The position numbers and the translations under genes were made by a program. A DNA stretch of 50,052 nt from Lentisphaeria bacterium (GTDB lineage Bacteria > Verrucomicrobiota > Lentisphaeria > Victivallales > Victivallaceae), in assembly GCA_017505415.1 (NCBI GenBank), contig JAFVPG010000384.1, positions 1 to 50,052 of the forward strand, written 5' to 3'. Below, piece by piece: positions 11,676-45,961 of this stretch (positions within the stretch are counted from its first letter, which is position 1; the number at the start of each line of letters is the position of its first letter). The notes beneath the pieces are model-generated. The model ran no database searches. It saw only the letters and a program-made list of their open reading frames with translations, and was not told where the DNA came from.

Positions 11676-11691
11676 TTTACAAGTAAATCAT

Positions 11692-18302: not shown

Positions 18303-18314
18303 AATATACAAACC

Positions 18315-19670: not shown

Positions 19671-20545
19671 TATTGAATCTCCTTTGTATTTTCATGATCG
19701 GGGTCATTGTGTTCAACTGCCAGATGCTCCGCCGCAGTCAAAAGACAATGAGCCGGACATTTGACACTTGCCGCCTCTTCAGCCGTCGGAAGTTGAGGCG
19801 CATCATAATCAACAGTACCTCTGAATCCTTCAACTTTGAACTTATCAGGAAATGCCTTTTCACATTTGCGGCATCCGATACAGGGAACATTGCAATATTG
19901 CCGTTTAAGCGGCGCTTTTTCAGGATTACTGCAATAAATATGCACTTGAGCATCAGCATTGACGAGTTTAATGAGTTTGCGGGGGCAAGCCATAACACAT
20001 TTGCCGCAGCCTACACAAAGTTCACCGTGAACCACAGCGAGACCATTGACTATTTCTATAGCACCGAAAGGACAGGTTCTGGCACAGCTGCCAAGTCCGA
20101 GACATCCATAAGCGCAACCTTTCGGACCGCCGGAAATCAAACTTGCTGAACGGCAATCATTTACACCATTATATAAAATTGGATTCCGTGTCTGATTTTT
20201 ATCTCCACCGCACAAAACAACGGCACATTTGCGGAAAGAAACATTATTTTCAATTCCCAGAGCCTGTGCGATAGCATTGACAGTTTCGCGGCTTGAAACC
20301 GGACATTGCCCGGGAGATAATTCTCCTGAAGCAACCGCTTTTGCAAAATCAGCACAACCGGCTTTGCCGCAACCGCCGCAATTCGCTCCGGGAAGAAGCT
20401 CAAGCACAAGTTCTGCACGGGAATCACTTTCAACTTTGAAAATTTTTGCCGCCACTGCTATGAGGATACCCAATACCAAACCGATACTGCCCATGGCAAG
20501 CGCCGCAAACACAACAGATGAATATTCTACCATAAAACCATTCAT
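19670..20545 (-). CDS. rnfB: Rnf complex subunit B (polyferredoxin)
   Basis: 291 aa. N-terminal TM helix, CGGCGKAGC motif, and several CxxCxxCxxxC(P) clusters. Confidence 0.85.
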   Translation of the reverse strand: MNGFMVEYSSVVFAALAMGSIGLVLGILIAVAAKIFKVESDSRAELVLELLPGANCGGCGKAGCADFAKAVASGELSPGQCPVSSRETVNAIAQALGIENNVSFRKCAVVLCGGDKNQTRNPILYNGVNDCRSASLISGGPKGCAYGCLGLGSCARTCPFGAIEIVNGLAVVHGELCVGCGKCVMACPRKLIKLVNADAQVHIYCSNPEKAPLKRQYCNVPCIGCRKCEKAFPDKFKVEGFRGTVDYDAPQLPTAEEAASVKCPAHCLLTAAEHLAVEHNDPDHENTKEIQ

Positions 20546-20557
20546 AAAAACACCTCA

Positions 20558-21157
20558 TCAGCAAAGACCGGCAAAGCCCATAAACGCCATTGCCAGAATA
20601 CCGGCAGTTATCAGCGCAATAGACATTCCCTGAAAAATTTTCGGAATCTGTGCCAGTTCAAGACGCTCTCTGATAGAAGCAAAAAGCACCAGTGCCAGAG
20701 CAAAACCGACACCGGAAAAAAATCCGAATACCGTCGACGGCAATACCTCTCTGGCACTCTGAGCATTGATAGCAGCCACTCCGAGAACGGCACAATTTGT
20801 AGTGATCAACGGCAGATAAATGCCCAATGCGCCATACAAGACAGGACTCAATTTCTGCAAAATGATTTCAACCAGCTGAACCAATCCTGCAATAATAACA
20901 ATAAAAAGCAGAATCTGCAAAAAACTCAAATCAACCTTGAATCCGGCGATCTCTTTTATTTGCAGCAAGTAATGATAAACCAAAGATGTGCAGAAAGATG
21001 CCAGTGTCATAACAAAAATAACTGCACCTCCCATCCCGAGGGCAGTCGATATTTTTTTCGATACCCCCAGAAAAGGACATATACCTAAAAAGCGGGACAA
21101 CACAAAGTTGTATACAAATACCGCTCCAACAGTCAATTCCAAATAATTTTCATTCAT
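20558..21157 (-). CDS. rnfA: Rnf complex subunit A
   Basis: 199 aa. NFVLSRFLGICPFLGVSKK...GMGGAVIFVMTLAS matches the RsxA/RnfA N-terminus. Confidence 0.9.
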   Translation of the reverse strand: MNENYLELTVGAVFVYNFVLSRFLGICPFLGVSKKISTALGMGGAVIFVMTLASFCTSLVYHYLLQIKEIAGFKVDLSFLQILLFIVIIAGLVQLVEIILQKLSPVLYGALGIYLPLITTNCAVLGVAAINAQSAREVLPSTVFGFFSGVGFALALVLFASIRERLELAQIPKIFQGMSIALITAGILAMAFMGFAGLC

Positions 21158-27684: not shown

Positions 27685-28053
27685 ATGAAAATAAAAGCTG
27701 CAGAAATTTCATATCATCCTGATGCCTGTGAATTTGTGCGCGAAGCAGTAAATTATGCCATACGCAATGCAGGCGAAATGCGGCATGTTTCCGCCTTGGA
27801 ACTGCTGGAAAACTGCAAGCGTTTTGCTCAGGAAGAATACGGTTTTCTTGCCCGTAATGTGCTTGAAAGCTGGCAGATAAAATGTGCCGATGACATCGGA
27901 GATATTGTTTATTATCTTATTGAAAAAGGAAAATTGAGCGCATCGCCGGGAGATGCCAGAGAGGATTTTTCAGTTGATTTTGACCTGTTTGATGAAAATT
28001 CATTCCGTATAAAACCGGACATTGATTTGTCAAAACCGGTTATTGTCGATTGA
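27685..28053 (+). CDS. Small conserved hypothetical protein
   Basis: 122 aa with GAGGAA upstream. Acidic and soluble. It may belong to the small PVC-restricted Minf_1886-type family. That is from my recollection only and was not verified. Confidence 0.55.
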   Translation: MKIKAAEISYHPDACEFVREAVNYAIRNAGEMRHVSALELLENCKRFAQEEYGFLARNVLESWQIKCADDIGDIVYYLIEKGKLSASPGDAREDFSVDFDLFDENSFRIKPDIDLSKPVIVD

Positions 28054-28915: not shown

Positions 28916-29010
28916 AATAACAATAAATATAACATTAAAACATGATTTTCACCAGTCAAAATGAAAAAAAATTTTGAAAAAAATGAAAAACATGGTAAAT
29001 TATATGCCAA

Positions 29011-29173
29011 AGGTAATTTCAAAAGTAATTCAAAAAAAGATTGAAAAATCAGCGTTGATGAGATTAAAGCGGTAGTTCGAGCGTGGCTATTGAATAAATA
29101 ACCTCCGAAAACACTCCGTTTTAAGATCGCGACGATGAATTTCAAGATTTTTTGAGGACTTTTGAAATTACCT
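29011..29173. repeat. Long imperfect inverted repeat (rod-like hairpin), a candidate structured ncRNA or 5'-UTR element
   Basis: Perfect 16-bp arms aggtaatttcaaaagt (29011-29026) / acttttgaaattacct (29158-29173). Pairing continues inward: tcaaaaaa/ttttttga, ttgaaa/tttcaa, aaagcgg(t)agt/acactccgtttt, and an apical ggctatt-gaata-aataacc. Confidence 0.45.
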
Positions 29174-29224
29174 CGTCAATCAATATTTATCATAACATTT
29201 TAATAACATACAAAGGAACGAAAA

Positions 29225-31162
29225 ATGAGTATATGGCAACAGCCGATTCAGCAAGTTCTCATACTTTCGCTGATTTTGGCGGCGGGCGGTATCATCAGTG
29301 CATTTTTCAACAGCCGTGTAAGAGGCCGCATTTTCGCAGTAATTGCGGGAGCGGTCGGAGCTTATTCGACGCTGTTGATGGTACTTGGTATCCGCGGTCA
29401 GGAATTTTTTGAGTATTCACTTGGCAGTATGAATTTTTCACTTGATCTGGTGGGAAGATTTTTTATTGCTACAGTGGGACTCGGAATATTTTTCTCGGCG
29501 CTTTATAATGCATCATTATCAGGCAATTCGAGAGCGTTCGAGCAGAAAAACCGTTTTTATTACGGGTCTCTCGGCATTTTCGGAGCATCAATGCTTCAAG
29601 TACTGCTGGTCAAAATTGACGGCACTCTCAATTCGGCACTGCTTTTCATGTCTGCCTGGGAAATCATGTCGCTTTTCTCTTTTCTGCTGATAATATGCAG
29701 TGATGAAGTCAAAGGGGTTTCCGGCAAAGGGTTGACTTATCTGCTGGTAATGCACATTTCTGCGGCATTTCTGATGACCGGTTTTATCGCCATCAGCGGC
29801 AATCCATTCGGCGGCGATCTGTATGGATTCTGGGCATTGCTCATCGGCTTCGGCATCAAACTCGGACTTTTCCCGTCCCATTTTTATATGGCAGACAGTT
29901 ACGAAACAGCTCCCGGAGCATCAGCAGGACTCATTTCAGGTGTCATGATAAATATGGCAATTTACGGAATATTGAGAACCTTTCTTGTCTGTGTCAAATA
30001 TGCCGGAATTTTCGGTTATATCCTGCTGATTATCGGCATTGTCAGCGCACTGTGGGGAGTATTAAGCGCACTTGCGGAAAACCGGGCAAAACGGGTCCTT
30101 GCCGGCAGCAGTATGGAAAATATGGGACTTATCATCATCGGAGTCGGAGTCTTCACTATTGCAGAATATGTTTATAATGTTCATACTGCGGCACTTATGG
30201 CATTGGCAGGAGTTTTGATCCACTCTCTCAATCATTCACTTTTCAAAGCACAGCTTTTTTATTCCGTCGACCTGATACGCAACCATACCGGCAGCACAGA
30301 TCTGGACAAACTCGGCGGTCTGGGCAAAACATTTAACAACCTGAAAAGAAGCATGCTGCTCGGCACCCTCGGTATATCATCTCTGCCGCCGCTGAATGGA
30401 TTTATCGGCAAATTTCTGCTGTATGCAAGTTTCTTTGAACTGCTGTTCAATGTTGAATCGTTCAAAGTTGCATTGATCTGCGTTTTCTGTCTGGTCATAC
30501 TCGGTACAGTCGGTGCATTGAGTCTGTTTGTTTTCGTCAAACTCTACTCAATGATATTCCTCGGTGCTGAACGTGAAAAATTCCCCCAAATGCGCAAAGC
30601 TGTTGAAAACCGTCTCAACAGCATAACTTTGAGTGCAATGTCTCTGCTCTCGCTCACCATAGGTGTTGCTCCGATACTTTTCGCATACAACCGCGGAAAA
30701 CTTACAAACGTTCTTTATGAGCTTACACTCAATGCATTCCTTATCATAGGATTTTCTCTGCTGGTCTGGGGCTTCAGACATTTGCTGGTCAAACTCAACG
30801 GTTCCCGCAAATCTCCAACCTGGGGATGCGGTTACAGCAATATCACCTCCAGAATGGAATATACCGCAGATTCATTCAGTTTGCCGCTGATGCGTCTGCT
30901 TGACAAAATCTTTCCCCGCAAAGAAAATAATGAACCCGTAACAGAGCTTTATCCTGCAGACATCACCCGCACTTATGAAGTCAGAAATCCCATAAAAGAA
31001 TCTATCGACTTCATCTGTTCAAAATTCAATGATCTGCTCGGAAAACTTCAGTTCCTGCAATCAGGACTGATGCAGAATTACCTCTGGATAAGCATCATAT
31101 TCCTTGTACTGGCGATCCTTTATGCGATTTTCAGCAGTTCTACGGCAGGAGGTGTCAAATGA
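29225..31162 (+). CDS. HyfB/HycC-like (NuoL-type) antiporter-like membrane subunit
   Basis: 645 aa, polytopic. Motifs AWEIMSLFSF, GFGIKLGLFPSHFYMADSYETAP and HSLFKAQLF. A C-terminal extension carries TWGCGY, typical of HycC/HyfB. Confidence 0.8.
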   Translation: MSIWQQPIQQVLILSLILAAGGIISAFFNSRVRGRIFAVIAGAVGAYSTLLMVLGIRGQEFFEYSLGSMNFSLDLVGRFFIATVGLGIFFSALYNASLSGNSRAFEQKNRFYYGSLGIFGASMLQVLLVKIDGTLNSALLFMSAWEIMSLFSFLLIICSDEVKGVSGKGLTYLLVMHISAAFLMTGFIAISGNPFGGDLYGFWALLIGFGIKLGLFPSHFYMADSYETAPGASAGLISGVMINMAIYGILRTFLVCVKYAGIFGYILLIIGIVSALWGVLSALAENRAKRVLAGSSMENMGLIIIGVGVFTIAEYVYNVHTAALMALAGVLIHSLNHSLFKAQLFYSVDLIRNHTGSTDLDKLGGLGKTFNNLKRSMLLGTLGISSLPPLNGFIGKFLLYASFFELLFNVESFKVALICVFCLVILGTVGALSLFVFVKLYSMIFLGAEREKFPQMRKAVENRLNSITLSAMSLLSLTIGVAPILFAYNRGKLTNVLYELTLNAFLIIGFSLLVWGFRHLLVKLNGSRKSPTWGCGYSNITSRMEYTADSFSLPLMRLLDKIFPRKENNEPVTELYPADITRTYEVRNPIKESIDFICSKFNDLLGKLQFLQSGLMQNYLWISIIFLVLAILYAIFSSSTAGGVK

Positions 31163-32067
31163 AATCAATCATTTTCAATATCGTATTCCTTTTTGTACTT
31201 CCCTATCTGATGTACGGCATAGCTAAAAAAGTCAAAGCATTTTTTGCCCGCCGCAAAGGACCTTCCATCTGGCAGTACGGCTATGATTTGGCAAAACTGC
31301 TCCGCAAAGAAGAAGTTCTGAGTGATTTCTCCTGTCTGCGCAACGGTGGAGTTCTGACTCTGAGCGGAGTACTTGCCGCCGCAATGTTCATTCCGCAAAT
31401 CAGCGGCAGCAGCATTCTCAACCTCGGTTATTATGATTACATCCTGTTTATCTACATGCTGAGTTTCTCCCGCTTTTTTACCATTATTACGGCAATGGAA
31501 TCCGGATGCAGTTTTGAAGGGATGGGCAGTTCCCGTGAACTGATATTCTCTGTCACCGGTGAAATTGCCCTGATGATGACAGTCGCCTCATTGGCATTCT
31601 ACGGCAAAGCAGAAAATTTCAACGGAATTTTCAATGCCATCTCCAACGGCGGAACAGAAGGACTTATCATTGCCATAATCGCCTCATTCATACTGTTTGT
31701 TCTGATGCTTCTGGAAGGCAGCCGCATGCCGATAGATGATCCGGAAACTCACCTCGAACTGACAATGATCCATGAAGCCATGGTGCTTGACCAATCCGGT
31801 CCGCAGCTGGCGTTCATGAGTTTCAGCGGTATGGTAAAAGTTTATCTTTTTGCCTCTTTTATAATCTCTCTGATACTTGCAACATGCAAAACGAGCAGTT
31901 ACTACTGGCTGTTTTTTATACTCGGAATAATAATCATTTCAGTCATTATCGGTCTGATTGAATCTCTTCAGGCAAGATTGAGAATGGTACATGTTCAACA
32001 ATACATACTTTTTTCAGCAGCTATCTCGCTGATACTGCTGCTGAGCGTTATAATCTTCAAGGTGTGA
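31159..32067 (+). CDS. HyfC/HycD-like (NuoH-type) membrane subunit
   Basis: 302 aa. The N-terminal KVKAFFARRKGPSIWQYGYDLAKLLRKE matches the HycD/NuoH signature. 4-nt overlap with the upstream gene. Confidence 0.8.
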   Translation: MKSIIFNIVFLFVLPYLMYGIAKKVKAFFARRKGPSIWQYGYDLAKLLRKEEVLSDFSCLRNGGVLTLSGVLAAAMFIPQISGSSILNLGYYDYILFIYMLSFSRFFTIITAMESGCSFEGMGSSRELIFSVTGEIALMMTVASLAFYGKAENFNGIFNAISNGGTEGLIIAIIASFILFVLMLLEGSRMPIDDPETHLELTMIHEAMVLDQSGPQLAFMSFSGMVKVYLFASFIISLILATCKTSSYYWLFFILGIIIISVIIGLIESLQARLRMVHVQQYILFSAAISLILLLSVIIFKV

Positions 32068-32070
32068 CAA

Positions 32071-32715
32071 ATGGAAATATTTGAATTTATTGTAACATTA
32101 TTGCTTGTGGTGACGCTTCTGCGCATATCCATAAGCGGACGTTTGGAAGTCTATATAAAAATGCTTTCATTGCAGGGGCTTCTGCTTTTTTCTCTGGTAT
32201 TTTTCACTGTATCACATGAAAGCTATGTAACTCTGGCAGTGGCAATTATCGAAACATTGCTGCTGAAAGCGATATTTGTTCCATTTTATCTTAACAAGGT
32301 AATAAAAGAAAACAATATCAAACGTGAAACAGAGCCTTATGTGCCGCATATTTTCTCTCTGCTGATGGTCAGTCTCGGAATCGGACTCAGTCTGGCGGCG
32401 GCATTTTATATGAAGCAGGAAATACCGGAAGTAAAAATCGTACTGCTCGGCAGCGGTATCGCCATGATCCTCTGCGGCATGTTTGTGATTCTGAGCCGCA
32501 AAAAAATCATTACCCACGTTATGGGATACTGTGTGCTTGAAAACGGTATTTTTCTGCTCAGCTTGTCGGCGGCAAAAGAATTGCCGGTAATCGTCAGTCT
32601 CGGAGTCGCACTCGATGCTTTCATTTGGGTATTGCTGGCAGGCTTGCTGGTCAGAGTGATCCGTACCGAACTTAAGAGCCAATCTATTGATGAATTGAAA
32701 GGATTGAAGAATTAA
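32071..32715 (+). CDS. HyfE-like small membrane subunit
   Basis: 214 aa, about 6 TM helices. Size and position match HyfE. Confidence 0.65.
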   Translation: MEIFEFIVTLLLVVTLLRISISGRLEVYIKMLSLQGLLLFSLVFFTVSHESYVTLAVAIIETLLLKAIFVPFYLNKVIKENNIKRETEPYVPHIFSLLMVSLGIGLSLAAAFYMKQEIPEVKIVLLGSGIAMILCGMFVILSRKKIITHVMGYCVLENGIFLLSLSAAKELPVIVSLGVALDAFIWVLLAGLLVRVIRTELKSQSIDELKGLKN

Positions 32716-32716
32716 T

Positions 32717-34114
32717 ATGATTACATTTGGAGGTATGAGTCTTATTTTTGCTGCGTTGGCATGGTTTTTCAAAAAAGCAGAAAGCGGCAGCAGAATATTT
32801 TTTGTTTTTGCATTACTGCATTTACTGTCATCGATCATGCTGATGGTAAATTCTCTGTTTCCGTCATCATGCTGCGCAGCATGGCTGCCGCTGATGCCGC
32901 ACACAAATCCGCTGTGCAGTTATGTTTTGCTGATAGAATCTGTGGTGGTGATGGCAGTTGCATGGTACAATACCGACTTCTTTATGCGTCATGAAGAGAT
33001 CCCCTACCGGCACAAAAGTCCGATATATCATGCTTCGATCATCGGTTTCATCGGAGCAATGGATTTTGCGATATTATCAGACAATCTCGGAATGGTCTGG
33101 GTTTTCATTGAACTTTCAACTCTGCTGAGTGCGCTGCTTATCGCACACCACAACTCGGCACATTCTCTGGAGGCGACATGGAAATATGTATTCATCTGCT
33201 CTGTCGGTATCGCCTTTGCATTTGCAGGTATAGTATTTCTGCTGATAGCCACTGACGGCAATCTTGACCTCACAACAATGCAGCTTGACCGCAATAAACT
33301 TTTCGCTGTCAAAATTGCGCTGCCGTTTCTCATTATCGGATTCGGAACCAAAGCCGGTCTCGCTCCGGTTCACAACTGGCTGCCTGATGCCCACAGCGAA
33401 GCTCCGACACCGGTTTCAGCATTACTCTCTGCCTCACTGCTCAACAGTGCATTACTTCCTATCGTAAGGATTCTGCAGCTGACCGGAGGCACAGGATTGG
33501 AAAATTTTGCTTCTGCAATATTACTGACTATGGGTTTTCTCTCATTGATCGTTGCTGCGATTTTCATTCCGCATGCGTATAACTACAAACGCATGCTGGC
33601 ATATTCATCTGTTGAAAACATGGGGATTCTTGCCATTGCTCTGGGCTTGAACTGCCAAAGCGGCTTCCTTATCCACATGGCGGGACATTCATTTATCAAA
33701 TGCGCCCTGTTTCTGATCGCCGGCAATATTCTGAGCATGTACGGCTCAAAACTCATAAAAGAGGTCAGCGGCATGGTAAGAATCCACAAAGGTCTTGCCT
33801 ATCTTTATCTGGTCGGAATTCTGGCAATCATGGGATTTGTACCATTCATGCTGTTTGTCAGTGAATTTGTAATAATTGCGGCACTTTTCAACAGCAATAA
33901 ATTTTTGTGTGTTCTTTTCATCATATTACTGACATTTGTGATGTACGGGCTCGGCAGAAACATGCTGAAGATGGTACGTGGAAAGTCTTCTCTCTACAAA
34001 TCAGACTACCGTTTCAAAACTGCCGCTATTGCACCGATAGTCATTCTGCTGCTGATTGCGGCGGCATCATTCGGGGCAATGATGTACCGTGGCGTATTTG
34101 AAAATATTTTATAA
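32717..34114 (+). CDS. HyfF-like (NuoN/M-type) antiporter-like membrane subunit
   Basis: 465 aa. VWVFIELSTLLSALLI and the canonical GFGTKAGLAPVHNWLPDAHSEAPTPVSALLSA. Confidence 0.8.
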   Translation: MITFGGMSLIFAALAWFFKKAESGSRIFFVFALLHLLSSIMLMVNSLFPSSCCAAWLPLMPHTNPLCSYVLLIESVVVMAVAWYNTDFFMRHEEIPYRHKSPIYHASIIGFIGAMDFAILSDNLGMVWVFIELSTLLSALLIAHHNSAHSLEATWKYVFICSVGIAFAFAGIVFLLIATDGNLDLTTMQLDRNKLFAVKIALPFLIIGFGTKAGLAPVHNWLPDAHSEAPTPVSALLSASLLNSALLPIVRILQLTGGTGLENFASAILLTMGFLSLIVAAIFIPHAYNYKRMLAYSSVENMGILAIALGLNCQSGFLIHMAGHSFIKCALFLIAGNILSMYGSKLIKEVSGMVRIHKGLAYLYLVGILAIMGFVPFMLFVSEFVIIAALFNSNKFLCVLFIILLTFVMYGLGRNMLKMVRGKSSLYKSDYRFKTAAIAPIVILLLIAAASFGAMMYRGVFENIL

Positions 34115-34132
34115 ACGGATGGAGAGTATATT

Positions 34133-35611
34133 ATGATAGAAGTAAAAAATAATCAATGTATAGATTTAACGGATCTCCACAGTGTGCCGTATGATTATTT
34201 CATGGACACTGCAGTTGCACAGAAATTCCGTTGTATGAATATTGCCGCCCGCAGAAACAAAGAAAATATTGATGCGTTCATCCTGATGACTTCCGCCAGT
34301 TCAACTCTGTATCTGGAATACGTGGAATTCAAACCCGGAAAAGTTTACCCGTCAATCGGAAAAACCGTTCCGTCATGGATCAATTTTGAGCGTGAACTTG
34401 CCGAAAATTTCGGAGTGAAATATGCCGACAATCCGTGGCTCAAGCCAATCCGTTTTCCCAAAGATGCCTGCCATAAACTCTCAATGGCTGAATATCCTTT
34501 CTTCAAGGAAAACGGCAGCGGAGTTCATGAAGTAGCCGTTGGCCCGGTCCATGCAGGTGTGATTGAACCCGGACACTTCCGCTTCATGTGCAGGGGAGAG
34601 AAAATAGATCATCTTGAAATCCAGCTCGGCTATCAGCACCGCGGTATTGAAAATCTCATGTGTCAGGGCAAAATAGCCTCAAAACGTGTGCTTGCTGAAA
34701 GTATTTGCAGTGACAGTGCAGTTATAAATTCATATTTGTATTTCAATATTCTGGAAAACGCTCTCAAAATAACTGTCCCTGAACGTGCGCTTGCAATCAG
34801 AACAATTGCTGTTGAACTTGAAAAAGCCGCATTGCATCTTTCAACATTAAGCGGCATTGCAAATGACATCGGCTATGTGATGGGGGCGGCATTTGCCGGA
34901 GCGACAAGAACTTATATCATCAATTCACTGCAAAGCATCTGCGGCAACCGCTTCGGCAGAGGTCTCATGACTCTCGGCGGAGTCGCTTTTGACATTGATG
35001 ATGAATTAAACAGCAAATTGACTGACACTCTCAATATGGTTTATGATCGTGTATCTCATCTCCGCAACACCATGATGGAATCCCCCGGAGTGCGTTCACG
35101 ATTGGAGCTTACCGGAACTGTAAGCAAAGAAACAGCTGCGGCAACCGGTTTTACCGGAGTTGCCGGACGTGCTTCAGGAGTTGATATTGACGGACGCATT
35201 TTCATGGATAATCCGTTCTATAAACAACAGCCGGAAACAAAATATTCTTTCATCCGCAAAGGGGATGTTTTCTCACGCACATGCCTGCGTATTGATGAAG
35301 CACTGGCTTCATTGAAACTGGTGCTTGACATTCTGAAAAAACTTCCGTCAGGAGCAATCTTGAGTGCAGAATGCGGCAAATTTGCATCAAACATGCTTAT
35401 TCTCTCTATCGGAGAAGGTCCGAGAGGAGAATACATTCACATGGCAGTCACCGGACCCGATGAAAATGTACCGTTTGAATCATACAAGGTGAAAGATCCA
35501 TCTTTCATCAACTGGTTCGCACTTGCATTGAGTGTCCGCAATAATCAGATCAGCGATTTTCCGCTGTGCAACAAAAGTTTTGATCTTTCATATTCGGGGA
35601 ATGACTTATGA
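34133..35611 (+). CDS. HycE/HyfG-like NuoC-NuoD fusion (large-subunit homolog) lacking most [NiFe] ligands
   Basis: 492 aa. NuoC-like N-terminus (FERELAENFG). The NuoD/HycE core is GPVHAGVIEPGHFRF...LGYQHRGIE. The metal-site motifs are degenerate (see finding). Confidence 0.8.
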   Translation: MIEVKNNQCIDLTDLHSVPYDYFMDTAVAQKFRCMNIAARRNKENIDAFILMTSASSTLYLEYVEFKPGKVYPSIGKTVPSWINFERELAENFGVKYADNPWLKPIRFPKDACHKLSMAEYPFFKENGSGVHEVAVGPVHAGVIEPGHFRFMCRGEKIDHLEIQLGYQHRGIENLMCQGKIASKRVLAESICSDSAVINSYLYFNILENALKITVPERALAIRTIAVELEKAALHLSTLSGIANDIGYVMGAAFAGATRTYIINSLQSICGNRFGRGLMTLGGVAFDIDDELNSKLTDTLNMVYDRVSHLRNTMMESPGVRSRLELTGTVSKETAAATGFTGVAGRASGVDIDGRIFMDNPFYKQQPETKYSFIRKGDVFSRTCLRIDEALASLKLVLDILKKLPSGAILSAECGKFASNMLILSIGEGPRGEYIHMAVTGPDENVPFESYKVKDPSFINWFALALSVRNNQISDFPLCNKSFDLSYSGNDL

Positions 35612-36366
35612 TTCAGTCTTTACGTCTTTTTTTCAAGCAGGGCCGTCAGTATATCGGCAATCTTTTTACCGCACAGGTTGACAAGAAATACCGCGGATTT
35701 CCGCAATTCAAACCCAATCTCTGCACCCATTGCAATAAATGTATTTCCAACTGTCCCGTTCAGGCAATTTCTGAAGATTTGACCGTTGACATCGGCAAAT
35801 GCCAATTTTGCGGAGAGTGTATCAAACTCTGTCCTTCCGGAGCGGCAACTTTCACCAACTTCCACCACACAGGAGCAACCGATCGTGAAACCTTGAAAAT
35901 CACTCCCGGCACAACTCCTGAAGAGTATGAGAAAAACGCCATACAAATCCGCAAAGAAATCGTTGCCATGTTCGGACGTTCACTCAAACTTCGCAGTGTT
36001 TCAGCCGGCGGATGCAACGGCTGTGAACTTGAACTCAATGCCACCGGCAATGTAAACTTCGACCTCGGCAGATACGGAATTGATATTGCAGCCAGCCCGC
36101 GCCATGCCGACGGTATAATCATTTCCGGTCCGATAAGTTGCAATATGGCATACGCATTGCAGGCGACATACGATGCAGTTCCCGAACCGAAAATCGTCAT
36201 CCTGCTCGGATCATGTGCGATTTCAGGAGGAGTCTTTGCCAATTCTCCGGAACTTGACCGTGACTTCCTGGAAAAAAATAAAATAGATCTCTATATCCCC
36301 GGTTGTCCTCCGCATCCTCTGACGATTGCTAATGCCATCCTTGCATTTCTCAACCGCAAAAAATAA
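35608..36366 (+). CDS. Fusion of a 2x[4Fe-4S] ferredoxin (HycF-like) with a NuoB/HycG-like small subunit
   Basis: 252 aa. CTHCNKCISNCP and CQFCGECIKLCP are followed by GGCNGCE, GSCAISGG and PGCPPHP (NuoB-type cluster ligands). 4-nt overlap with the upstream gene. Confidence 0.8.
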   Translation: MIQSLRLFFKQGRQYIGNLFTAQVDKKYRGFPQFKPNLCTHCNKCISNCPVQAISEDLTVDIGKCQFCGECIKLCPSGAATFTNFHHTGATDRETLKITPGTTPEEYEKNAIQIRKEIVAMFGRSLKLRSVSAGGCNGCELELNATGNVNFDLGRYGIDIAASPRHADGIIISGPISCNMAYALQATYDAVPEPKIVILLGSCAISGGVFANSPELDRDFLEKNKIDLYIPGCPPHPLTIANAILAFLNRKK

Positions 36367-39027: not shown

Positions 39028-40116
39028 ATGAAAAAAATAATATTGATGTTTCTTCTGGTCTGTACATTCACTCAACTCAGTGCTTTAAGTACCGGAGATG
39101 AAGCGATTGAACTTAAAACAAAGTTTTACAATGGAAAAATCTTTAAAACCAAATTTTATATAGTCGATGCAAAAAATCAGAAAAAATTGAAAATTCTGGT
39201 CTTTGCCCGTCTGCTTGCAGATGATTTTCTGCACAGTGACTCTCTGATAAAAAATATCGGCAGCCGGAAAAACGTATCACTCGCATTTGCGGCGACCTCC
39301 GAAAATGAAATAGGAACATTTCTGAAAGAACGTCCCGCCTTCCAATATCCTCTGCTGTTCGACAGAAATGCTGTCAAAACATACATGGAACAAAATATGA
39401 TTTATCCCCGTGCATTCGTAATAAATTACGAAAATAAAATCATCTGGGACGGTGAAATGATCGACCTGCCCGACATGCTGGATAAATTTGAAAACGGCAA
39501 ATACGATTTAGAAGTCAACCGTAAAATCAACCGTCATCTCGCAGAAATGCAGAATGCCTTGAGAGCAGGCAGTGAATATCAGCTTGACCGTGCCGCCCGT
39601 GCCATACTTGCACTTGAGCCCGGCAATCTGGCATGTCTGCGCATGCGCATGTTCTCATTTGAAAACACCAACCGCTTCGCCGAAGCGTGGGCATTTCTTG
39701 ATGAATTCCGCCGTAAATACCCTAATGAAAAACACTTATACATGCTTCAGATGGATATGGCGGCACGCTACCGTCAATTCAGCGAAGCCGGAGCGCAAGT
39801 TGCCAGAGCATTTATCAACAGCAAACTCGGTACTGCCAATGATTGGCTGCTGCTCTCTTTTCTGCTGCTGAATCACTATGAAAACAATACAGAAGCTCTG
39901 AATTGTGCCGGAGACTTGCTTAAACGGCTGAACAGCAACTCATTCGGGAATGATATTATGCAAAAATCCCTCTTTTTCCGCACTTGTGCATTATTGCATT
40001 ACAAACGGTGCGATTTGATTGAAGCTGTCAAAAATCAATCACTGGCATGTGACGTTTCAAATGATGCTGAAAACCGGAAAATCTTAAAATATTATCAAAA
40101 TTTACAAAAAAAATAG
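39028..40116 (+). CDS. Secreted thioredoxin-fold (TlpA-like) protein without CxxC, with a helical-repeat C-terminal half
   Basis: 362 aa with a signal peptide. KILVFARLLADDF sits where TlpA-type proteins carry FWASWCxPC. YPLLFD...YPRAFVINYENKIIWDG matches the rest of the fold. Confidence 0.55.
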   Translation: MKKIILMFLLVCTFTQLSALSTGDEAIELKTKFYNGKIFKTKFYIVDAKNQKKLKILVFARLLADDFLHSDSLIKNIGSRKNVSLAFAATSENEIGTFLKERPAFQYPLLFDRNAVKTYMEQNMIYPRAFVINYENKIIWDGEMIDLPDMLDKFENGKYDLEVNRKINRHLAEMQNALRAGSEYQLDRAARAILALEPGNLACLRMRMFSFENTNRFAEAWAFLDEFRRKYPNEKHLYMLQMDMAARYRQFSEAGAQVARAFINSKLGTANDWLLLSFLLLNHYENNTEALNCAGDLLKRLNSNSFGNDIMQKSLFFRTCALLHYKRCDLIEAVKNQSLACDVSNDAENRKILKYYQNLQKK

Positions 40117-41440: not shown

Positions 41441-43303
41441 ATGGCAGTACAGTCAACAATTTTAACTATTGATGTCGGTAGCGATACCGTCAAAATGGCG
41501 GAGTTTTCTTTTGCTCCCGAAGGCGGCGGTCTTATACTGGAAAAATTTGCATTTGAACCGCTTGCGCAAGGTGATGATGAAGCGGTTGTTGCGTTTGCCC
41601 GTGTCTATCAATTTATGCTGCAGACAAACAATTTCCGGTCAAAACAGGTTCGTATTACCATTTCCGGTCAGGCAGCATTTTCCCGTTTGAGCAAACTGCC
41701 GGAATTAAGCGGTGATGATGACATGATCAGCAAGATCATTGAATTTGAAGCCAAACAAACAGTTCCGTACACCATGGATGAAATCATCTGGGACTATCAG
41801 CTTATCAAACATACCATTCCGCCGGTCACAGAATTTGATGATCCGCACGATGAATATGAAGCATTGTTTGTCGCTGCCAAACGTGATATTATTACTGCAT
41901 ATACCGACGTTGTTCTGGAGAGCGGCCTTGATGTTATCTCCGTAAATATTGCTCCTGTATCAATGGCCAATGCATATTATGCATGTGTCAAACGTGATCC
42001 CGGCGCATGTGAAATGCTGCTCAATATCGGAGGACAGTCAAGCTCTCTGGTCATTTGTGAAGGCGACAGAATTTTTGTCCGCAGTATTCCTATTGCCGGA
42101 GATGCCATCACTCAGCAGATAAGCAAAGAATTTGCTATTCCGTTTGCAGAAGCAGAAGATTTGAAGGGCAAACATGGCTTTGTCGCACTCGGCGGTGCTT
42201 ATGAGGACCCCGAATCTGAAGTTGCCGCAACTATTTCAAAAATCGCCCGTAACGTAATGACCCGTCTGCACGGCGAAATCAGCCGCTCCATAAATGTTTG
42301 GCGTTCACAGCACAACGGAAGCAAACCGACTGCACTTTATCTTGCAGGCGGAGGTTCGCTGATACAGTATGTAACTGAATTTTTCACTGAAAAACTTCAT
42401 ATCAAAGTCGATTACCTCAACGTTTTCAGTGCCATGGGCATCGGCAGCGGTGTTGACCGTGAAGCATTGCTTGACGTTGCTCCCATGTTTGCTGAACTTG
42501 CAGGAATGGGTGTCCGCAGTGCGGCAGAAGTTCCGGTCGACATCAACCTCGTTCCTGAAACTATCAAAATTCAGGCGGATATTCAATCCAAGAAAATGTA
42601 TTTCTTTGCCAGTTGTGCAACTCTGGTGGTTTCACTGCTTATTTTCTATGCAGGTGTCAGCAAAATGCTTGAATTCGACCGTTCCCGTGTGGAACGTGTC
42701 CGCGGCAAAGTCGAAGAAGCTCAGGCACTTTTTGAAAAAATCAAAGAACAGAACAGATATGTTACATCGGAGAAAGATAAGTATAACCGTTATATCAAGC
42801 TGATCAAGGACCGTACTGCATGGATCGAAATCATGAATGATTTGCAGAATATCATTCCCGATACAACCTGGTTCGTAAAACTTGAAGGCATTGCGGATAT
42901 TGAAGCTGACCGCAAAGCTGAACAGGAAGCCGCACAGAAAGCCCGTCAGGAAGGTGCTCCTGCAACTGAAAATAATAACGGCGGCGGTTTTGCCGGTATT
43001 TTCGGCGGAAATCAGCCGGCTCCACCACCAGATCCCGGCATGAATCCTGAAATGGGTGACGGAATGGCAGCTCCTCAGAATCCTCAAAAAGAAATCAATG
43101 CCCTGAAACTCAAGGGCTATTCATTGCTGCTCAAACAGGAAATTCTTACTGACTACCTGAAAGCAAACATCAAAAAGTCAAAAATGTTCAAAAACAGTGA
43201 CCCGAATGATGTTGAGATCGTTGTTGTTCTGGATGAAGTTGCTCCCAACAACATTGCCGCATTCACACTCTACCTTAAACTCAATAACCCGATGAGATAT
43301 TAA
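41441..43303 (+). CDS. PilM-like actin-fold protein fused to a PilN-like TM/coiled-coil region
   Basis: 620 aa. The N-terminal LTIDVGSDTVKMAEF...FEAKQTVPYTMDEIIWDY is PilM-like. A TM helix (FFASCATLVVSLLIFYAGV) lies near residue 400, followed by a coiled coil and a Pro/Gly/Asn low-complexity linker. Confidence 0.75.
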   Translation: MAVQSTILTIDVGSDTVKMAEFSFAPEGGGLILEKFAFEPLAQGDDEAVVAFARVYQFMLQTNNFRSKQVRITISGQAAFSRLSKLPELSGDDDMISKIIEFEAKQTVPYTMDEIIWDYQLIKHTIPPVTEFDDPHDEYEALFVAAKRDIITAYTDVVLESGLDVISVNIAPVSMANAYYACVKRDPGACEMLLNIGGQSSSLVICEGDRIFVRSIPIAGDAITQQISKEFAIPFAEAEDLKGKHGFVALGGAYEDPESEVAATISKIARNVMTRLHGEISRSINVWRSQHNGSKPTALYLAGGGSLIQYVTEFFTEKLHIKVDYLNVFSAMGIGSGVDREALLDVAPMFAELAGMGVRSAAEVPVDINLVPETIKIQADIQSKKMYFFASCATLVVSLLIFYAGVSKMLEFDRSRVERVRGKVEEAQALFEKIKEQNRYVTSEKDKYNRYIKLIKDRTAWIEIMNDLQNIIPDTTWFVKLEGIADIEADRKAEQEAAQKARQEGAPATENNNGGGFAGIFGGNQPAPPPDPGMNPEMGDGMAAPQNPQKEINALKLKGYSLLLKQEILTDYLKANIKKSKMFKNSDPNDVEIVVVLDEVAPNNIAAFTLYLKLNNPMRY

Positions 43304-43305
43304 TT

Positions 43306-44562
43306 ATGAATCCTGTATTTATAAAAAGATTTTTGAAATATAATAAACCTCTGGTTGCTGTAATCGGAGTGTCATTGCTGGTTGTACTTTTCCTGCTCGT
43401 CATTGCTGTTTTGAAATATCTCGAAATGGTTGCGGCAAATAGTGAAGTCAACAGAATGCGTGACATTATAGCTGAGCTTCAGGATCCACGCAAAAATAAA
43501 GTCGCTGTTATTGAAGGCAACCTCGATCTGCTGAAAAAAGATTATGTAATATATCAGAAAAAGAATGAAGAACTGCGCCCCCATATCGGTCATCCGTATG
43601 AAAAAGCTCTCGATGCCATGGCTAAAGAACTCGGAATGAAAAACGGTGAAGATTTAACTGTAAAATTCTATGAATTTGTCAATAAACGTAACGAACATGG
43701 CAATAATGAACAGATTTCTATTATTTTCAGACGTTTTGAACAGCAGTTCAAGCCTCATATCTGGCGCAAGGCTGTTGAAGCATTTATGAATGAAGCCAAT
43801 TCAAAAACTGCGGATAAAAAGGAAACAAAACGTAAAATATCATTTGAAGAAGTCACTTCCGCTAACGTCAATGATATTTTCCTCCAGTCACTCGGTATCC
43901 CCCGAGAAATGTCAGGACGCGGTATCCAACATTGCAAAGACATTATAGAAAAAATAAAATTCGAACTGAATAAACACGTTATCAGTAAAAATATTGAAGT
44001 GAATAAAGATGCTGTTGATTTTTCTCTGACCACTCCCGGTTTGACATCTCCTGCTCAAATCGCAGAGTCCATGCAGAATATGGAAATTGTCAGCGATATG
44101 ATTTCAAGAATAGTAAATGATATTCCGTCTGCAAGCAAGGGCTCCTCTCTGAAATCATTTGAAAGCATCCGCTATAACGGCAAATCTCCTCTTCCTGATG
44201 ACAACAAGGCCGAAGTTTACAAATATAATCTGAAAATGATCGGCACCATGACTGCATTACGTCAGTTGTTCAAGTCTCTGAATGATGCAATTTACGATGG
44301 CAGATTGTATATCGTACGCAATGTGAAACTCAATGTTCCGCTGGAATCAGACGGCGCAGCTGTTGTCGTTGGATTCGCAGAAGAACCTGCCGAATACGTT
44401 GACGGTAAAAAAGTCGAAATCAAATATAAAGATGACTCAGATCTTGCAGTGCATTTGCGCCGTAACTACGGTAAAGTACTTATCGGTGCAAATCCATTCT
44501 TCAATATCGAATTGGATGTTGAATACGTTATTTTGAAACAACATGAATTTCAGAGCAGATAA
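43306..44562 (+). CDS. TM-anchored pilus-assembly-like protein (PilO / Amuc_1100-like by position and architecture)
   Basis: 418 aa. N-terminal TM helix (VAVIGVSLLVVLFLLVIAVL), a coiled-coil region, and a C-terminal beta-rich domain. Starts 2 nt after the PilM-like gene stop. Confidence 0.55.
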   Translation: MNPVFIKRFLKYNKPLVAVIGVSLLVVLFLLVIAVLKYLEMVAANSEVNRMRDIIAELQDPRKNKVAVIEGNLDLLKKDYVIYQKKNEELRPHIGHPYEKALDAMAKELGMKNGEDLTVKFYEFVNKRNEHGNNEQISIIFRRFEQQFKPHIWRKAVEAFMNEANSKTADKKETKRKISFEEVTSANVNDIFLQSLGIPREMSGRGIQHCKDIIEKIKFELNKHVISKNIEVNKDAVDFSLTTPGLTSPAQIAESMQNMEIVSDMISRIVNDIPSASKGSSLKSFESIRYNGKSPLPDDNKAEVYKYNLKMIGTMTALRQLFKSLNDAIYDGRLYIVRNVKLNVPLESDGAAVVVGFAEEPAEYVDGKKVEIKYKDDSDLAVHLRRNYGKVLIGANPFFNIELDVEYVILKQHEFQSR

Positions 44563-44576
44563 TCAGGAGGAATGAA

Positions 44577-45926: not shown

Positions 45927-45961
45927 AAAGGAATTATTAATTTTACATAAAGGATAAGTAT

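What the first reader, a model, noticed from the sequence alone, without database searches (positions are those of the whole stretch)
29225..36366. Hyf/Hyc-type complex-I-like operon whose catalytic subunit has lost the [NiFe] site (Ehr-like complex of unknown function)
Six tightly packed genes, with 4-nt overlaps at 31159-31162 and 35608-35611. They encode HyfB/HycC-, HyfC/HycD-, HyfE- and HyfF-like membrane subunits, a NuoC-NuoD fused large-subunit homolog, and a ferredoxin-NuoB fusion. I compared the large subunit with the HycE motifs as I recall them. The N-terminal RxCGxCxxxH box reads ESICSDSAVINS, which is C-x-x-S with His replaced by Asn. The register is anchored by the conserved ENA...VPERA 13-20 residues downstream. 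The C-terminal DPCxxCxxR box reads FDLSYSGNDL (Cys to Ser, Cys to Gly, Arg to Leu). The protein ends exactly there, so there is no C-terminal peptide for endopeptidase maturation. Three of the four Ni-Fe cysteine ligands are therefore absent. The small subunit keeps its NuoB-type cluster cysteines and two intact CxxCxxCxxxCP motifs. The antiporter-like subunits keep their TM5 Glu and TM7 Lys signatures. This is the profile of the bioinformatically defined but biochemically uncharacterised energy-converting-hydrogenase-related (Ehr) complexes. The likely picture is an ion-translocating module with electron input via ferredoxin and an unknown acceptor. No hyp, hycI or fdhF genes are in the window, and a full Rnf complex lies 8 kb away.
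Basis: partly seen in the sequence, partly recalled or inferred. Interest (0 to 1): 0.72.

Follow-up and report, generated by a model that had tools for sequence, protein, structure and literature searches.

The report
Hydrogenase-like membrane complex without nickel-iron site
This gut bacterium (family Victivallaceae) carries a six-gene operon for a complex-I-like membrane machine that looks like a hydrogen-producing enzyme but has lost its metal catalytic site; it belongs to the already described "Ehr" class, whose function is still unknown.

Summary
Window 29225-36366 holds six co-directional genes with gaps of -4, 3, 1, 18 and -4 nt. They encode a HyfB/HycC-like subunit, a HycD/NuoH-like subunit, a HyfE-like subunit, a HyfF-like subunit, a NuoC-NuoD-type large subunit, and a small subunit fusing a 2x[4Fe-4S] domain to NuoB.

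Alignment to solved MbhL and HycE fixes the register. RxCGxCxxxH reads S-I-C-S-D-S-A-V-I-N, and DPCxxCxxR reads D-L-S-Y-S-G-N-D-L followed by the stop codon. The one surviving Cys is A, C, T or V in homologs.

All 120 closest homologs share the ...DFPLCNKSF[ND]LSY[CSA]GxDL end. They come from Victivallaceae, Melainabacteria, Margulisbacteria and Spirochaetes. In a neighbour-joining (NJ) tree the protein sits deep in a clade with 0-1 of the four ligand Cys. The nearest 4-Cys hydrogenases are a separate sister clade.

All 12 Fe-S cysteines of the small subunit are 94-100% conserved. So are the hydrogenase proton-relay Glu, the coupling loops and the antiporter Glu/Lys residues.

The same cassette was called "Ehr" by Matheus Carnevali et al. 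2019, in a clade that includes Lentisphaerae. This is a new member of a known, functionally unsolved class. Most likely it is a ferredoxin-fed, ion-translocating oxidoreductase with an unidentified acceptor, not a hydrogenase.

The parts
28916..29224 (.). 309-bp AT-rich intergenic region upstream of the operon, a presumed promoter region. It lies between the divergent FtsQ-like gene and ehrA.
   Evidence: Sequence read. The consensus promoter scan was at chance level (18 found against 15.9 +/- 4.7 expected), so no promoter is demonstrated.
29225..31162 (+). ehrA: HyfB/HycC-like antiporter-like subunit (645 aa). It has a C-terminal extension that aligns to HycC TM15-16 and its WxCGY region, which is the likely coupling Loop 1.
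   Evidence: Pfam Proton_antipo_M 3.7e-30. Best NCBIfam hit is hydrogenase-4 subunit B, 1.8e-85, below the curated cutoff. HycC 7z0s_C 2.8e-40 over residues 33-566, with WEIMSL (TM5 Glu), GIKLGLFPSH (TM7 Lys), HSLFKAQLF and NGFIGKF kept.
31159..32067 (+). ehrB: HyfC/HycD/NuoH-like membrane anchor (302 aa).
   Evidence: Pfam NADHdh 2.2e-28. HycD 7z0s_D 2.1e-13 and MbhM 6cfw_M 3.3e-11. The acidic TM5-6 loop reads E-G-S-R-M-P-I-D-D-P-E-T-H-L-E-L, against HycD E-M-G-K-L-P-F-D-L-A-E-A-E-Q-E-L.
32071..32715 (+). ehrC: HyfE-like membrane subunit (214 aa) with a NuoK-like C-terminal half.
   Evidence: NCBIfam hydrogenase-4 membrane subunit 1.3e-18. Pfam Oxidored_q2 8.2e-07 over residues 128-213. Orthologs are 84-93% identical in Victivallaceae and 37-62% in other phyla.
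32717..34114 (+). ehrD: HyfF-like antiporter-like subunit (465 aa).
   Evidence: Pfam Proton_antipo_M 7e-44. Best NCBIfam hit is hydrogenase-4 subunit F, 1.6e-77. MbsH 6u8y_H 5.6e-28 and MbhH 6cfw_H 3.8e-27. FIELST (TM5 Glu), GTKAGLAPVHNWLPDAH (TM7 Lys) and HSFIKCALF are kept. The TM12 Lys is replaced by Glu, as known from NuoM (my own knowledge).
34133..35611 (+). ehrL: NuoC-NuoD fused large subunit (492 aa) without the [NiFe] ligands.
   Evidence: Pfam Complex1_30kDa plus Complex1_49kDa. MbhL 2.5e-39 and HycE 3.5e-37. AlphaFold model pTM 0.87, with best structural match HycE 7z0s_E at TM 0.82. Nests in the Cys-less clade.
34541..34585 (+). ehrL residues 137-151, the beta1-beta2 loop GPVHAGVIEPGHFRF (coupling Loop 2). 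It includes Glu145, the equivalent of MbhL Glu21.
   Evidence: Gapless alignment to MbhL. Conserved 95-99% in 115 Ehr-type representatives and in the 4-Cys hydrogenases alike. MbhL E21 is named the key proton-reduction residue, absent in MBS, in PMC7684303.
34697..34729 (+). ehrL residues 189-199, ESICSDSAVIN, which replace the L1 box E-R-x-C-G-x-C-x-x-x-H.
   Evidence: Asp194 is invariant or 95% conserved in Ehr-type proteins, where hydrogenases have V/A/I. Position 192 is variable, and position 195 is Ser/Thr instead of Cys.
35576..35608 (+). ehrL residues 482-492, SFDLSYSGNDL-COOH, which replace the L2 box S-x-D-P-C-x-x-C-x-D-R. The protein ends here.
   Evidence: Ser486 (91%) and Gly489 (95%) replace the two Cys, and Leu492 replaces Arg. 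All 120 homologs end at the same residue.
35608..36366 (+). ehrS: small subunit (252 aa). A NuoI/HycF-like 2x[4Fe-4S] domain is fused to a NuoB/HycG/MbhJ-like domain.
   Evidence: Pfam Oxidored_q6 6.5e-28 plus Fer4 families. MbhJ 7.6e-28 and HycG 1.6e-23. It is the most conserved of the six proteins across phyla, at 51-62% identity for the full-length Fd-NuoB form.
35722..35832 (+). ehrS residues 39-75: two CxxCxxCxxxCP motifs, the ligands of the distal and medial [4Fe-4S] clusters.
   Evidence: The eight Cys are conserved in 113-120 of 120 homologs.
36013..36306 (+). ehrS residues 136-233: C136xxC139, C203 and C233, the ligands of the proximal [4Fe-4S] cluster, with hydrogenase-type spacing.
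   Evidence: Each is conserved in 120 of 120 homologs. The region aligns without gaps to MbhJ GSCNGCDIE and HycG GGCNGCEIE. Complex I Nqo6 has adjacent CC at this point.

Best explanation
Identity (about 0.95). This is an Ehr-type complex, meaning an energy-converting or Ech hydrogenase-related complex. It is a six-subunit relative of Hyf/Hyc/Mbh group-4 hydrogenases in which the [NiFe] site has been replaced by a conserved polar pocket made of Asp194, Ser195, Ser486 and Tyr487. It belongs to the subfamily already reported from Riflemargulisbacteria, Melainabacteria, Lentisphaerae and Spirochaetes.

Mechanism (about 0.5, inferred). Reduced ferredoxin, for example from pyruvate:ferredoxin oxidoreductase, docks on the NuoI-like domain of EhrS. 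Electrons pass along the distal, medial and proximal [4Fe-4S] clusters. At or next to the proximal cluster, in the remodelled pocket formed by EhrL, EhrS and EhrB, a small acceptor other than H+ is reduced. Protons are supplied through the retained relay Glu145.

The redox change is passed on through three coupling loops: the EhrA C-terminal extension, the EhrL beta1-beta2 loop, and the EhrB TM5-6 loop. This drives H+ or Na+ translocation by the two antiporter-like subunits EhrA and EhrD together with EhrC.

Shown here: the subunit identities, loss of the Ni-Fe ligands, retention of the whole Fe-S wire, the relay Glu, the loop acids and the antiporter Glu/Lys residues, and the self-contained cassette. 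Inferred: the electron donor, the direction of operation, the coupling ion, and the existence and nature of an acceptor.
For: - Register and loss of ligands.
- Clade placement outside the 4-Cys hydrogenases.
- Fold: best structural match is HycE at TM 0.82.
- All 12 Fe-S cysteines are 94-100% conserved in 120 homologs, with hydrogenase-type CxxC spacing.
- EhrS is the most conserved subunit across phyla, at 51-62% for the full-length form against 27-41% for EhrA. This points to a central redox role.
- Glu145 (MbhL E21) and the whole beta1-beta2 loop are 95-99% conserved. The E21 equivalent is absent in MBS and complex I according to PMC7684303.
- The acidic TM5-6 loop of the NuoH-like subunit and the Glu/Lys residues of both antiporter-like subunits are kept.
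- The same six-gene cassette, in the same order, occurs in all ten related loci that cover it whole, from five lineages. No conserved partner oxidoreductase gene lies next to it, which fits a diffusible donor such as ferredoxin.
- Composition is native, with GC3 of 0.42-0.50 like neighbouring genes, and the position next to the FtsQ-like gene is syntenic in Victivallaceae MAGs.
- Literature: the same composition is called Ehr. All Ehr subunits were detected in Geobacter proteomes.
Against: - No acceptor can be named. The pocket could not be modelled, because pLDDT falls below 50 exactly at residues 137-146 and 471-492 in the monomer model.
- Nothing here shows expression or activity in this organism.
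- One related cassette (L005, first copy) has a small subunit that lost the ferredoxin domain and three of the four proximal-cluster Cys. At least some members therefore work without this electron wire.
- The function of Ehr complexes is stated to remain unknown as late as 2025.
- The tree is a single NJ tree without bootstrap support.
Confidence: 0.6

Rival explanations
1. Redox-gated cation/proton antiporter. The Fe-S chain only senses the reduction state of the ferredoxin pool and switches an Mrp-like antiporter on or off. There is no net electron flow and no terminal acceptor.
For: No acceptor site or partner gene can be identified in any of the eight distant contexts examined. A related cassette has lost the proximal cluster but is otherwise intact. 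In three lineages a gene with HTH and PTS-EIIA domains overlaps the operon start, which hints at control by physiological state.
Against: A three-cluster wire with 12 of 12 conserved ligands, plus a retained proton-relay Glu next to the former active site, is more than a sensor would need. The Mrp-specific subunits (MrpA C-terminal part, B, C, E, F, G) are absent.
Confidence: 0.13
2. FDH-Ehr complex. A formate dehydrogenase encoded elsewhere docks on the ferredoxin-like domain, so formate rather than ferredoxin feeds the chain. This was proposed for Riflemargulisbacteria and Saganbacteria.
For: PMC6349859 proposes it. Geobacter Ehr subunits are most abundant on formate. In a Melainabacteria locus, molybdenum-cofactor biosynthesis genes start 44 bp downstream of ehrS.
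Against: No molybdopterin or NuoE/F-like gene was found in the scanned ORFs of the 50-kb window, nor next to the cassette in the other seven distant contexts. This idea changes the donor only and still leaves the acceptor unknown.
Confidence: 0.1
3. The same machine run backwards. An ion gradient, made for example by Rnf or the ATPase, drives uphill reduction of ferredoxin from a higher-potential donor.
For: Complex-I-type machines are reversible (established knowledge). Rnf lies 8 kb away. According to the literature, Ehr complexes also occur in aerobic nitrifiers. Those organisms need low-potential reductant (my own knowledge).
Against: A sugar-fermenting gut anaerobe is expected to have excess reduced ferredoxin (inference from the taxon only). 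The donor site is as unidentified as the acceptor.
Confidence: 0.08
4. Ferredoxin:quinone oxidoreductase, in the manner of cyanobacterial NDH-1 or Fpo.
For: The overall architecture is related. A NuoH-like subunit is present, and it forms the quinone cavity in complex I.
Against: The quinone-binding residues Nqo4 His38 and Tyr87 align to Ile144 and Ser193, the latter being Gly in the family. The small subunit has hydrogenase-type CxxC rather than the adjacent CC of Nqo6. EhrL is closer in sequence to MbhL and HycE (e-39, e-37) than to any NuoD (e-23 or weaker). Relatives in Riflemargulisbacteria lack quinone biosynthesis according to PMC6349859.
Confidence: 0.05
5. A cryptic hydrogenase, or a decaying relic or assembly artefact.
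For: One of the four Cys survives. The proton-relay Glu and the Fe-S wire are hydrogenase-like.
Against: Cys192 is A, T or V in most homologs. The Cys-less motifs are identical in independent assemblies and across five lineages. All six ORFs are intact, syntenic and 27-62% identical across phyla, which a relic would not show.
Confidence: 0.03

Closest known systems
Ehr complexes of Riflemargulisbacteria RA1A and Melainabacteria (Matheus Carnevali et al. 2019, PMC6349859)
   Same: Identical six-subunit composition: NuoC-NuoD fusion, NuoI-NuoB fusion, HyfB-like, HyfF-like, NuoH-like and HyfE-like. The gene order is the same in Margulisbacteria and Melainabacteria loci. EhrL is 45-46% identical and EhrS 55-58% identical. 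The C-terminal signature DFPLCNKSF[ND]LSYxGxDL is shared. The paper's tree already places Lentisphaerae sequences in this cluster.
   Different: The Victivallaceae subclade has Ser instead of Cys at position 488, Asn instead of His at 199, and Ser instead of Gly at 193. No fdhA or nuoEF-like genes and no HTH-EIIA gene lie nearby.
Geobacter sulfurreducens Ehr, GSU0739-45 (Ech-hydrogenase-related complex)
   Same: The class name and concept are the same. Subunits include a NuoL-like EhrA, a HyfE-like EhrC, EhrL and EhrS. The [NiFe] ligands are absent and the protein is expressed.
   Different: It probably belongs to the other Ehr subtype, which has V/A and I at positions 153 and 479 and S/A at 488. 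That assignment is an inference, not a test.
E. coli hydrogenase-4 (Hyf) and formate hydrogenlyase FHL-1 (PDB 7Z0S)
   Same: These are the best sequence and structure matches for EhrA (HycC 2.8e-40), EhrB (HycD 2.1e-13), EhrL (HycE 3.5e-37, TM 0.82) and EhrS (HycG 1.6e-23). The HyfB-C-E-F-G-(H+I) order resembles hyf (my own knowledge).
   Different: None of the four [NiFe] ligands is conserved in the family (one survives in this protein). There is no HycB/HyfA, no HyfD, no FdhF and no maturation genes in the window. HyfH and HyfI are fused. All NCBIfam equivalog scores are far below their cutoffs.
Pyrococcus furiosus MBH and MBS (PDB 6CFW, 6U8Y)
   Same: Ferredoxin input through three [4Fe-4S] clusters, the three-loop coupling system, and antiporter-like pumps. 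MbhL (2.5e-39) and MbhJ (7.6e-28) are the top hits. Like MBS, it is a Ni-free descendant of a hydrogenase.
   Different: Unlike MBS, it keeps the E21-equivalent Glu and full four-Cys coordination of the proximal cluster. Unlike both, it lacks the Mrp-type Na+ module (MbhA-G or MbsA-G).

Membership tests
Ehr (energy-converting / Ech hydrogenase-related complex) | The large subunit is homologous to group-4 [NiFe]-hydrogenase large subunits and to NuoD. | tested here: met
   Pfam Complex1_49kDa 1.8e-33. MbhL 2.5e-39 and HycE 3.5e-37. Foldseek match to HycE at TM 0.82.
Ehr (energy-converting / Ech hydrogenase-related complex) | The large subunit lacks the L1 and L2 cysteine ligands of the [NiFe] centre. 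| tested here: met
   Three of four are absent in this protein, and the fourth (Cys192) is A/C/T/V in homologs. Ser486 and Gly489 are 91% and 95% conserved in 115 Ehr-type representatives.
Ehr (energy-converting / Ech hydrogenase-related complex) | It lacks the quinone-headgroup ligands of NuoD (Nqo4 His38 and Tyr87). | tested here: met
   Gapless alignment to Nqo4 puts His38 opposite Ile144 and Tyr87 opposite Ser193.
Ehr (energy-converting / Ech hydrogenase-related complex) | It has a NuoB-type small subunit, a NuoH-like anchor and antiporter-like subunits, all encoded together. | tested here: met
   The same cassette is found in all ten related loci that cover it whole.
Ehr (energy-converting / Ech hydrogenase-related complex) | It groups phylogenetically with Cys-less sequences, outside the clades of active hydrogenases. 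| tested here: met
   NJ tree of 124 length-filtered representatives plus MbhL and HycE. The nine 4-Cys representatives form one clade, and the query lies deep in the 0-1 Cys clade. There was no bootstrap and no HydDB reference set.
Group 4 [NiFe]-hydrogenase (Hyf/Hyc/Ech/Mbh) | Four cysteine ligands in RxCGxCxxxH and DPCxxCxx(H/R). | tested here: not met
Group 4 [NiFe]-hydrogenase (Hyf/Hyc/Ech/Mbh) | Proton-relay Glu in the beta1-beta2 loop (MbhL E21). | tested here: met
   Glu145 is 96% conserved in Ehr-type representatives.
Group 4 [NiFe]-hydrogenase (Hyf/Hyc/Ech/Mbh) | Maturation machinery (hypA-F and an endopeptidase) present in the genome. | tested here: inconclusive
   None was found among the 44 ORFs scanned, which cover every plausible coding ORF of 150 aa or more in the 50-kb window. 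The rest of the genome is unavailable, and short ORFs that could hold HypA or HypC were not scanned.
Complex I / NDH-1 / Fpo (quinone or phenazine reductases) | His38 and Tyr87 quinone ligands in NuoD, and adjacent CC ligands of cluster N2 in NuoB. | tested here: not met
   Ile144 and Ser193 stand at the NuoD positions. The small subunit has C136-N-G-C139 spacing, like MbhJ and HycG.
MBS / Mbx (sulfane-sulfur reductase) | Shortened MbsJ motif that leaves the proximal cluster with three Cys ligands, loss of the E21 equivalent, and an Mrp-type Na+ module. | tested here: not met
   The four Cys align without gaps to MbhJ and are conserved 120/120. Glu145 is retained. No MrpB/C/E/F/G-like genes are present. 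The defining criteria are taken from PMC7684303.

The most novel reading that the evidence does not exclude
The Cys-less pocket is a new, non-[NiFe] catalytic site. It consists of invariant Asp194 and Ser/Thr195, Ser486, Tyr487, and the retained proton-relay Glu145 next to a fully ligated proximal [4Fe-4S] cluster. If so, this self-contained six-subunit complex would be a ferredoxin-driven ion pump that reduces a soluble acceptor not yet recognised. It would be a third energy-conserving ferredoxin sink, besides Rnf and Ech, in quinone-free fermenters of the gut and of sediments.
Probability: 0.3. Interest if true: 0.8.

Novelty: new member of a known kind. Interest (0 to 1): 0.35.

Why it matters
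Ehr complexes are widespread. This query found 428 cluster representatives at E <= 1e-30. According to the literature they occur from gut fermenters to nitrifiers and Geobacter. Papers as recent as 2025 still say their function is unknown.

If they are ferredoxin-linked ion pumps with a new acceptor, energy budgets of many anaerobes are incomplete. That would include human-gut Victivallaceae and Melainabacteria.

This window adds no new kind of system. The family-wide comparison made here does narrow the problem in five ways:
- The electron wire and the proton relay are under stronger constraint than the membrane arm.
- The pocket carries an Ehr-specific Asp/Ser/Tyr signature.
- The complex resembles neither MBS nor complex I at the diagnostic positions.
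- It needs no neighbouring partner gene.
- Some relatives have dispensed with the proximal cluster.

Tried and rejected
- A first literature search on 'Ehr' returned only electronic-health-record and Ehrlichia papers.
- The Marreiros et al. 2013 paper that defines the class is not held. What is said about it rests on citations in PMC6349859 and on my own knowledge.
- The promoter and terminator scan gave chance-level counts, so transcript boundaries are not established.
- The AlphaFold monomer model is good overall (pTM 0.87). It has pLDDT below 50 exactly at the beta1-beta2 loop and the C-terminal tail, so the former NiFe pocket could not be inspected.
- I looked for a conserved partner oxidoreductase beside the cassette in eight distant contexts and found none.
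- I considered whether conserved C153, C479 and C488 form a new metal or disulfide site. C153 and C479 sit at positions that are V/A/S and I in hydrogenases and in the other Ehr subtype. They lie 8 residues after Glu145 and 7 before Ser486 on two strands, so a packed core pair is more likely (inference). C488 is Ser in this clade.
- I considered recent horizontal transfer and rejected it. GC and GC3 match neighbouring genes, and the locus is syntenic in related MAGs.
- A paper on the related anaerobe Kiritimatiella gave no information on such complexes or on quinones.
- The single genome-contig scan found only four close Victivallaceae or Lentisphaeria MAGs, so no cultured carrier was identified.

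Full report
**What is there.** Window 29225-36366 carries six same-strand ORFs of 645, 302, 214, 465, 492 and 252 aa. The gaps between them are -4, 3, 1, 18 and -4 nt, and each start is preceded by a Shine-Dalgarno-like sequence.

Pfam and NCBIfam identify the six products as follows:
- a HyfB/HycC-like antiporter-like subunit;
- a NuoH/HycD-like anchor;
- a HyfE-like subunit;
- a HyfF-like antiporter-like subunit;
- a NuoC-NuoD-type large subunit;
- a small subunit that joins a 2x[4Fe-4S] domain to a NuoB domain.

All NCBIfam equivalog scores are far below their curated cutoffs. None of the proteins is therefore an ordinary Hyf, Hyc or Nuo ortholog.

GC and GC3 match the neighbouring housekeeping genes. 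The flanks are an FtsQ-like gene, metX/metW, SAM-cycle genes, purA and ftsW. rnfABCDGE lies at 21157-15797 on the minus strand. No Hyp, HycI or molybdopterin domain was found in the 44 ORFs scanned, which cover every plausible coding ORF of 150 aa or more in the window. The closest genomes are Victivallaceae or Lentisphaeria MAGs from human gut and sheep colon, and the locus is syntenic in them.

**The catalytic subunit.** A phmmer search against solved structures gives MbhL (6CFW, 2.5e-39) and HycE (7Z0S, 3.5e-37) as the best hits, well ahead of any NuoD. The printed alignments are gapless around both metal-binding boxes.
- MbhL E-R-M-C-G-I-C-S-F-S-H aligns to E189-S-I-C192-S-D194-S195-A-V-I-N199.
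- HycE S-L-D-P-C-Y-S-C-T-D(R) aligns to S482-F-D-L-S486-Y-S-G489-N-D-L492, followed by the stop codon.

An AlphaFold model built on 48 homologs has pTM 0.87, and its best structural match is HycE at TM 0.82. Confidence collapses exactly at the beta1-beta2 loop and the C-terminal tail. These are the parts that form the pocket only in the assembled complex.

**This is a family trait, not an accident.** All 120 best homologs end at the same residue with ...DFPLCNKSF[ND]LSY[CSA]GxDL. They include 12 orthologs at 73-100% identity from independent assemblies. The rest are 43-54% identical and come from Victivallales, Gastranaerophilales/Melainabacteria, Margulisbacteria and Spirochaetes.

Position 192, the one surviving ligand Cys, is A 67, C 31, T 13, V 7 and S 2 in these homologs. 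Effectively all four ligands are gone.

A whole-library HMMER search found 428 cluster representatives at E <= 1e-30. Among 124 length-filtered representatives, 115 have 0-1 of the four Cys and nine have three or all four. The nine carry E-R-x-C-G-x-C and E-L-C-Y-S-C-x-D-R. They also have no C-terminal extension, so the missing peptide is not diagnostic.

In an NJ tree rooted on MbhL, the nine form one clade beside HycE. All Cys-less sequences form the sister group, and the window protein sits deep inside it.

A contrast of the two groups shows few systematic changes:
- Cys to Ser486 and Cys to Gly489;
- V/A/I to Asp194;
- Arg to Leu492;
- a few others at positions 162, 166 and 455-456.

The beta1-beta2 loop GPxHAGxIEPGHFRF is equally conserved in both groups. 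It includes Glu145, the equivalent of MbhL Glu21.

**The rest of the machine is intact and constrained.**
- The eight Cys of the two CxxCxxCxxxCP motifs are conserved in 113-120 of 120 small-subunit homologs.
- The four Cys of the proximal cluster are conserved in 120 of 120. Their spacing is that of MbhJ and HycG (CxxC), not the adjacent CC of complex I.
- EhrS is the most conserved of the six proteins across phyla, at 51-62% identity for the full-length form. EhrL is 34-53% identical and EhrA 27-41%.
- EhrA aligns to HycC over residues 33-566, including the C-terminal extension.
- EhrD aligns to MbsH, MbhH and MrpD. Both antiporter-like subunits keep the TM5 Glu, TM7 Lys and TM11 Lys.
- EhrB aligns to HycD and MbhM and keeps the acidic TM5-6 loop.

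The three loops that couple redox chemistry to pumping in MBH, MBS and complex I, as described in PMC7684303, therefore all have counterparts here.

**Context elsewhere.** The six genes occur in the same order in all ten related loci that cover the cassette whole (an eleventh, L003, is cut at a contig end). Eight of these are distant contexts, from Lentisphaeria, Melainabacteria, Spirochaetes, Margulisbacteria and unnamed metagenome bins.

No oxidoreductase gene is conserved beside the cassette. Three loci have a gene with HTH_17 and PTS-EIIA domains that overlaps the first cassette gene. One locus has molybdenum-cofactor genes directly downstream. One Lentisphaeria contig has two cassettes in tandem, and the small subunit of the first has lost the ferredoxin domain and three of the four proximal-cluster Cys.

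**Comparison with what is known.** The name Ehr was coined for the Geobacter sulfurreducens cluster GSU0739-45. All its subunits are detected in proteomes and are most abundant on formate. It was generalised as 'energy-converting hydrogenase-related complexes' by Marreiros et al. 2013, which is cited in PMC6349859 but could not be read here.

Matheus Carnevali et al. 2019 describe exactly this composition for Riflemargulisbacteria: NuoC-NuoD fusion, NuoI-NuoB fusion, HyfB, HyfF, NuoH-like and HyfE. They report a clade of Riflemargulisbacteria, Melainabacteria, Lentisphaerae and Spirochaetes sequences and propose an FDH-Ehr complex. Reviews from 2023 and 2025 still call the function unknown.

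On the diagnostic positions the window complex differs from every characterised relative:
- It is not a hydrogenase, because the ligands are missing.
- It is not complex-I-like, because His38 and Tyr87 are replaced by Ile144 and Ser193 and the small subunit has CxxC rather than CC.
- It is not MBS-like, because it keeps four-Cys coordination of the proximal cluster and the E21-equivalent Glu, and it has no Mrp Na+ module.

**How it most likely works.** Shown here are an intact three-cluster wire with a ferredoxin-type entry domain, a retained proton relay, retained coupling loops and pump residues, and a self-contained cassette.

Inferred: reduced ferredoxin feeds electrons to the proximal cluster. 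A small acceptor other than H+ is reduced and protonated in the remodelled Asp/Ser/Tyr pocket. The energy drives H+ or Na+ export, which would complement Rnf. I give about 0.95 to membership in Ehr and about 0.5 to this mechanism.

The rivals are a redox-gated antiporter without net turnover, an FDH-fed variant, reverse operation, quinone reduction, and a cryptic hydrogenase or relic. The gated-antiporter idea is made more plausible by the cluster-less relative in L005.

**Verdict.** This is a new member of a known but functionally unsolved class, in a lineage (Lentisphaerae) already noted in the 2019 paper. It is of moderate interest, as one more instance of an open problem, and is not a surprise in itself.

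Noticed in passing
L005:4982-19519 (Lentisphaeria metagenome scaffold): Two Ehr-type cassettes lie in tandem. The first small subunit (11524-12060, 178 aa) lacks the ferredoxin domain and has lost three of the four proximal-cluster Cys (GSTNACE, VGDDAIDGG, PGDPP), yet its large subunit is a typical family member. The second cassette has a 519-aa large subunit of the other Ehr subtype and a complete Fd-NuoB.
   Followed up: partly
L007:4396-5070, L008:4343-5014, L009:4191-4883: A 223-230 aa gene with HTH_17 and PTS_EIIA_2 domains overlaps the start of the first cassette gene in Spirochaetes, Margulisbacteria and one further lineage. It is a candidate PTS-linked regulator of Ehr operons and is absent from the window.
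   Followed up: no
L006:12368-15639 (Melainabacteria): Molybdenum-cofactor biosynthesis genes (MoeA, a MoaA-like radical SAM enzyme, MoaC, MOSC, MogA-like) start 44 bp after the Ehr small-subunit gene. This is compatible with a link to a molybdoenzyme such as formate dehydrogenase, but it was seen in only one of the eight distant contexts.
   Followed up: no
window 15797-21157 (-): A complete rnfABCDGE operon lies about 8 kb upstream of the Ehr operon and on the opposite strand. A MurG-like glycosyltransferase gene follows it. Co-regulation with ehr was not tested.
   Followed up: partly
P0290, P0322, P0349, P0367, P0368, P0373, P0374, P0379 (library representatives): The nearest 4-Cys relatives (ERxCGxC ... 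ELCYSCxDR) share the DFPLINKSF context and also end at the D-R/L position without any C-terminal extension. They would be the natural outgroup for dating the loss of the [NiFe] site.
   Followed up: partly
window 34589-34591 and 35567-35569 (EhrL Cys153 and Cys479): These two Cys are 98-99% conserved in the query's subclade but are V/A and I in the other Ehr subtype and in hydrogenases. They lie 8 residues after Glu145 and 7 residues before Ser486, which suggests a contacting pair on neighbouring strands. Whether they have a role (disulfide, metal binding) or are only core packing is undecided.
   Followed up: partly
window 27685-28053 (+): A 122-aa ORF with no Pfam match is conserved at 56-60% identity in the same position, between metW and the FtsQ-like gene, in Victivallaceae MAG loci L001 and L004.
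   Followed up: no
window 41441-48394 (+): A PilM-like gene, two ORFs without Pfam hits and a secretin gene form a type IV pilus or type II secretion-like cluster downstream. Several large ORFs elsewhere have no Pfam hit at all (1256-3190 minus strand, 11692-13200 minus strand, 39028-40116).
   Followed up: no
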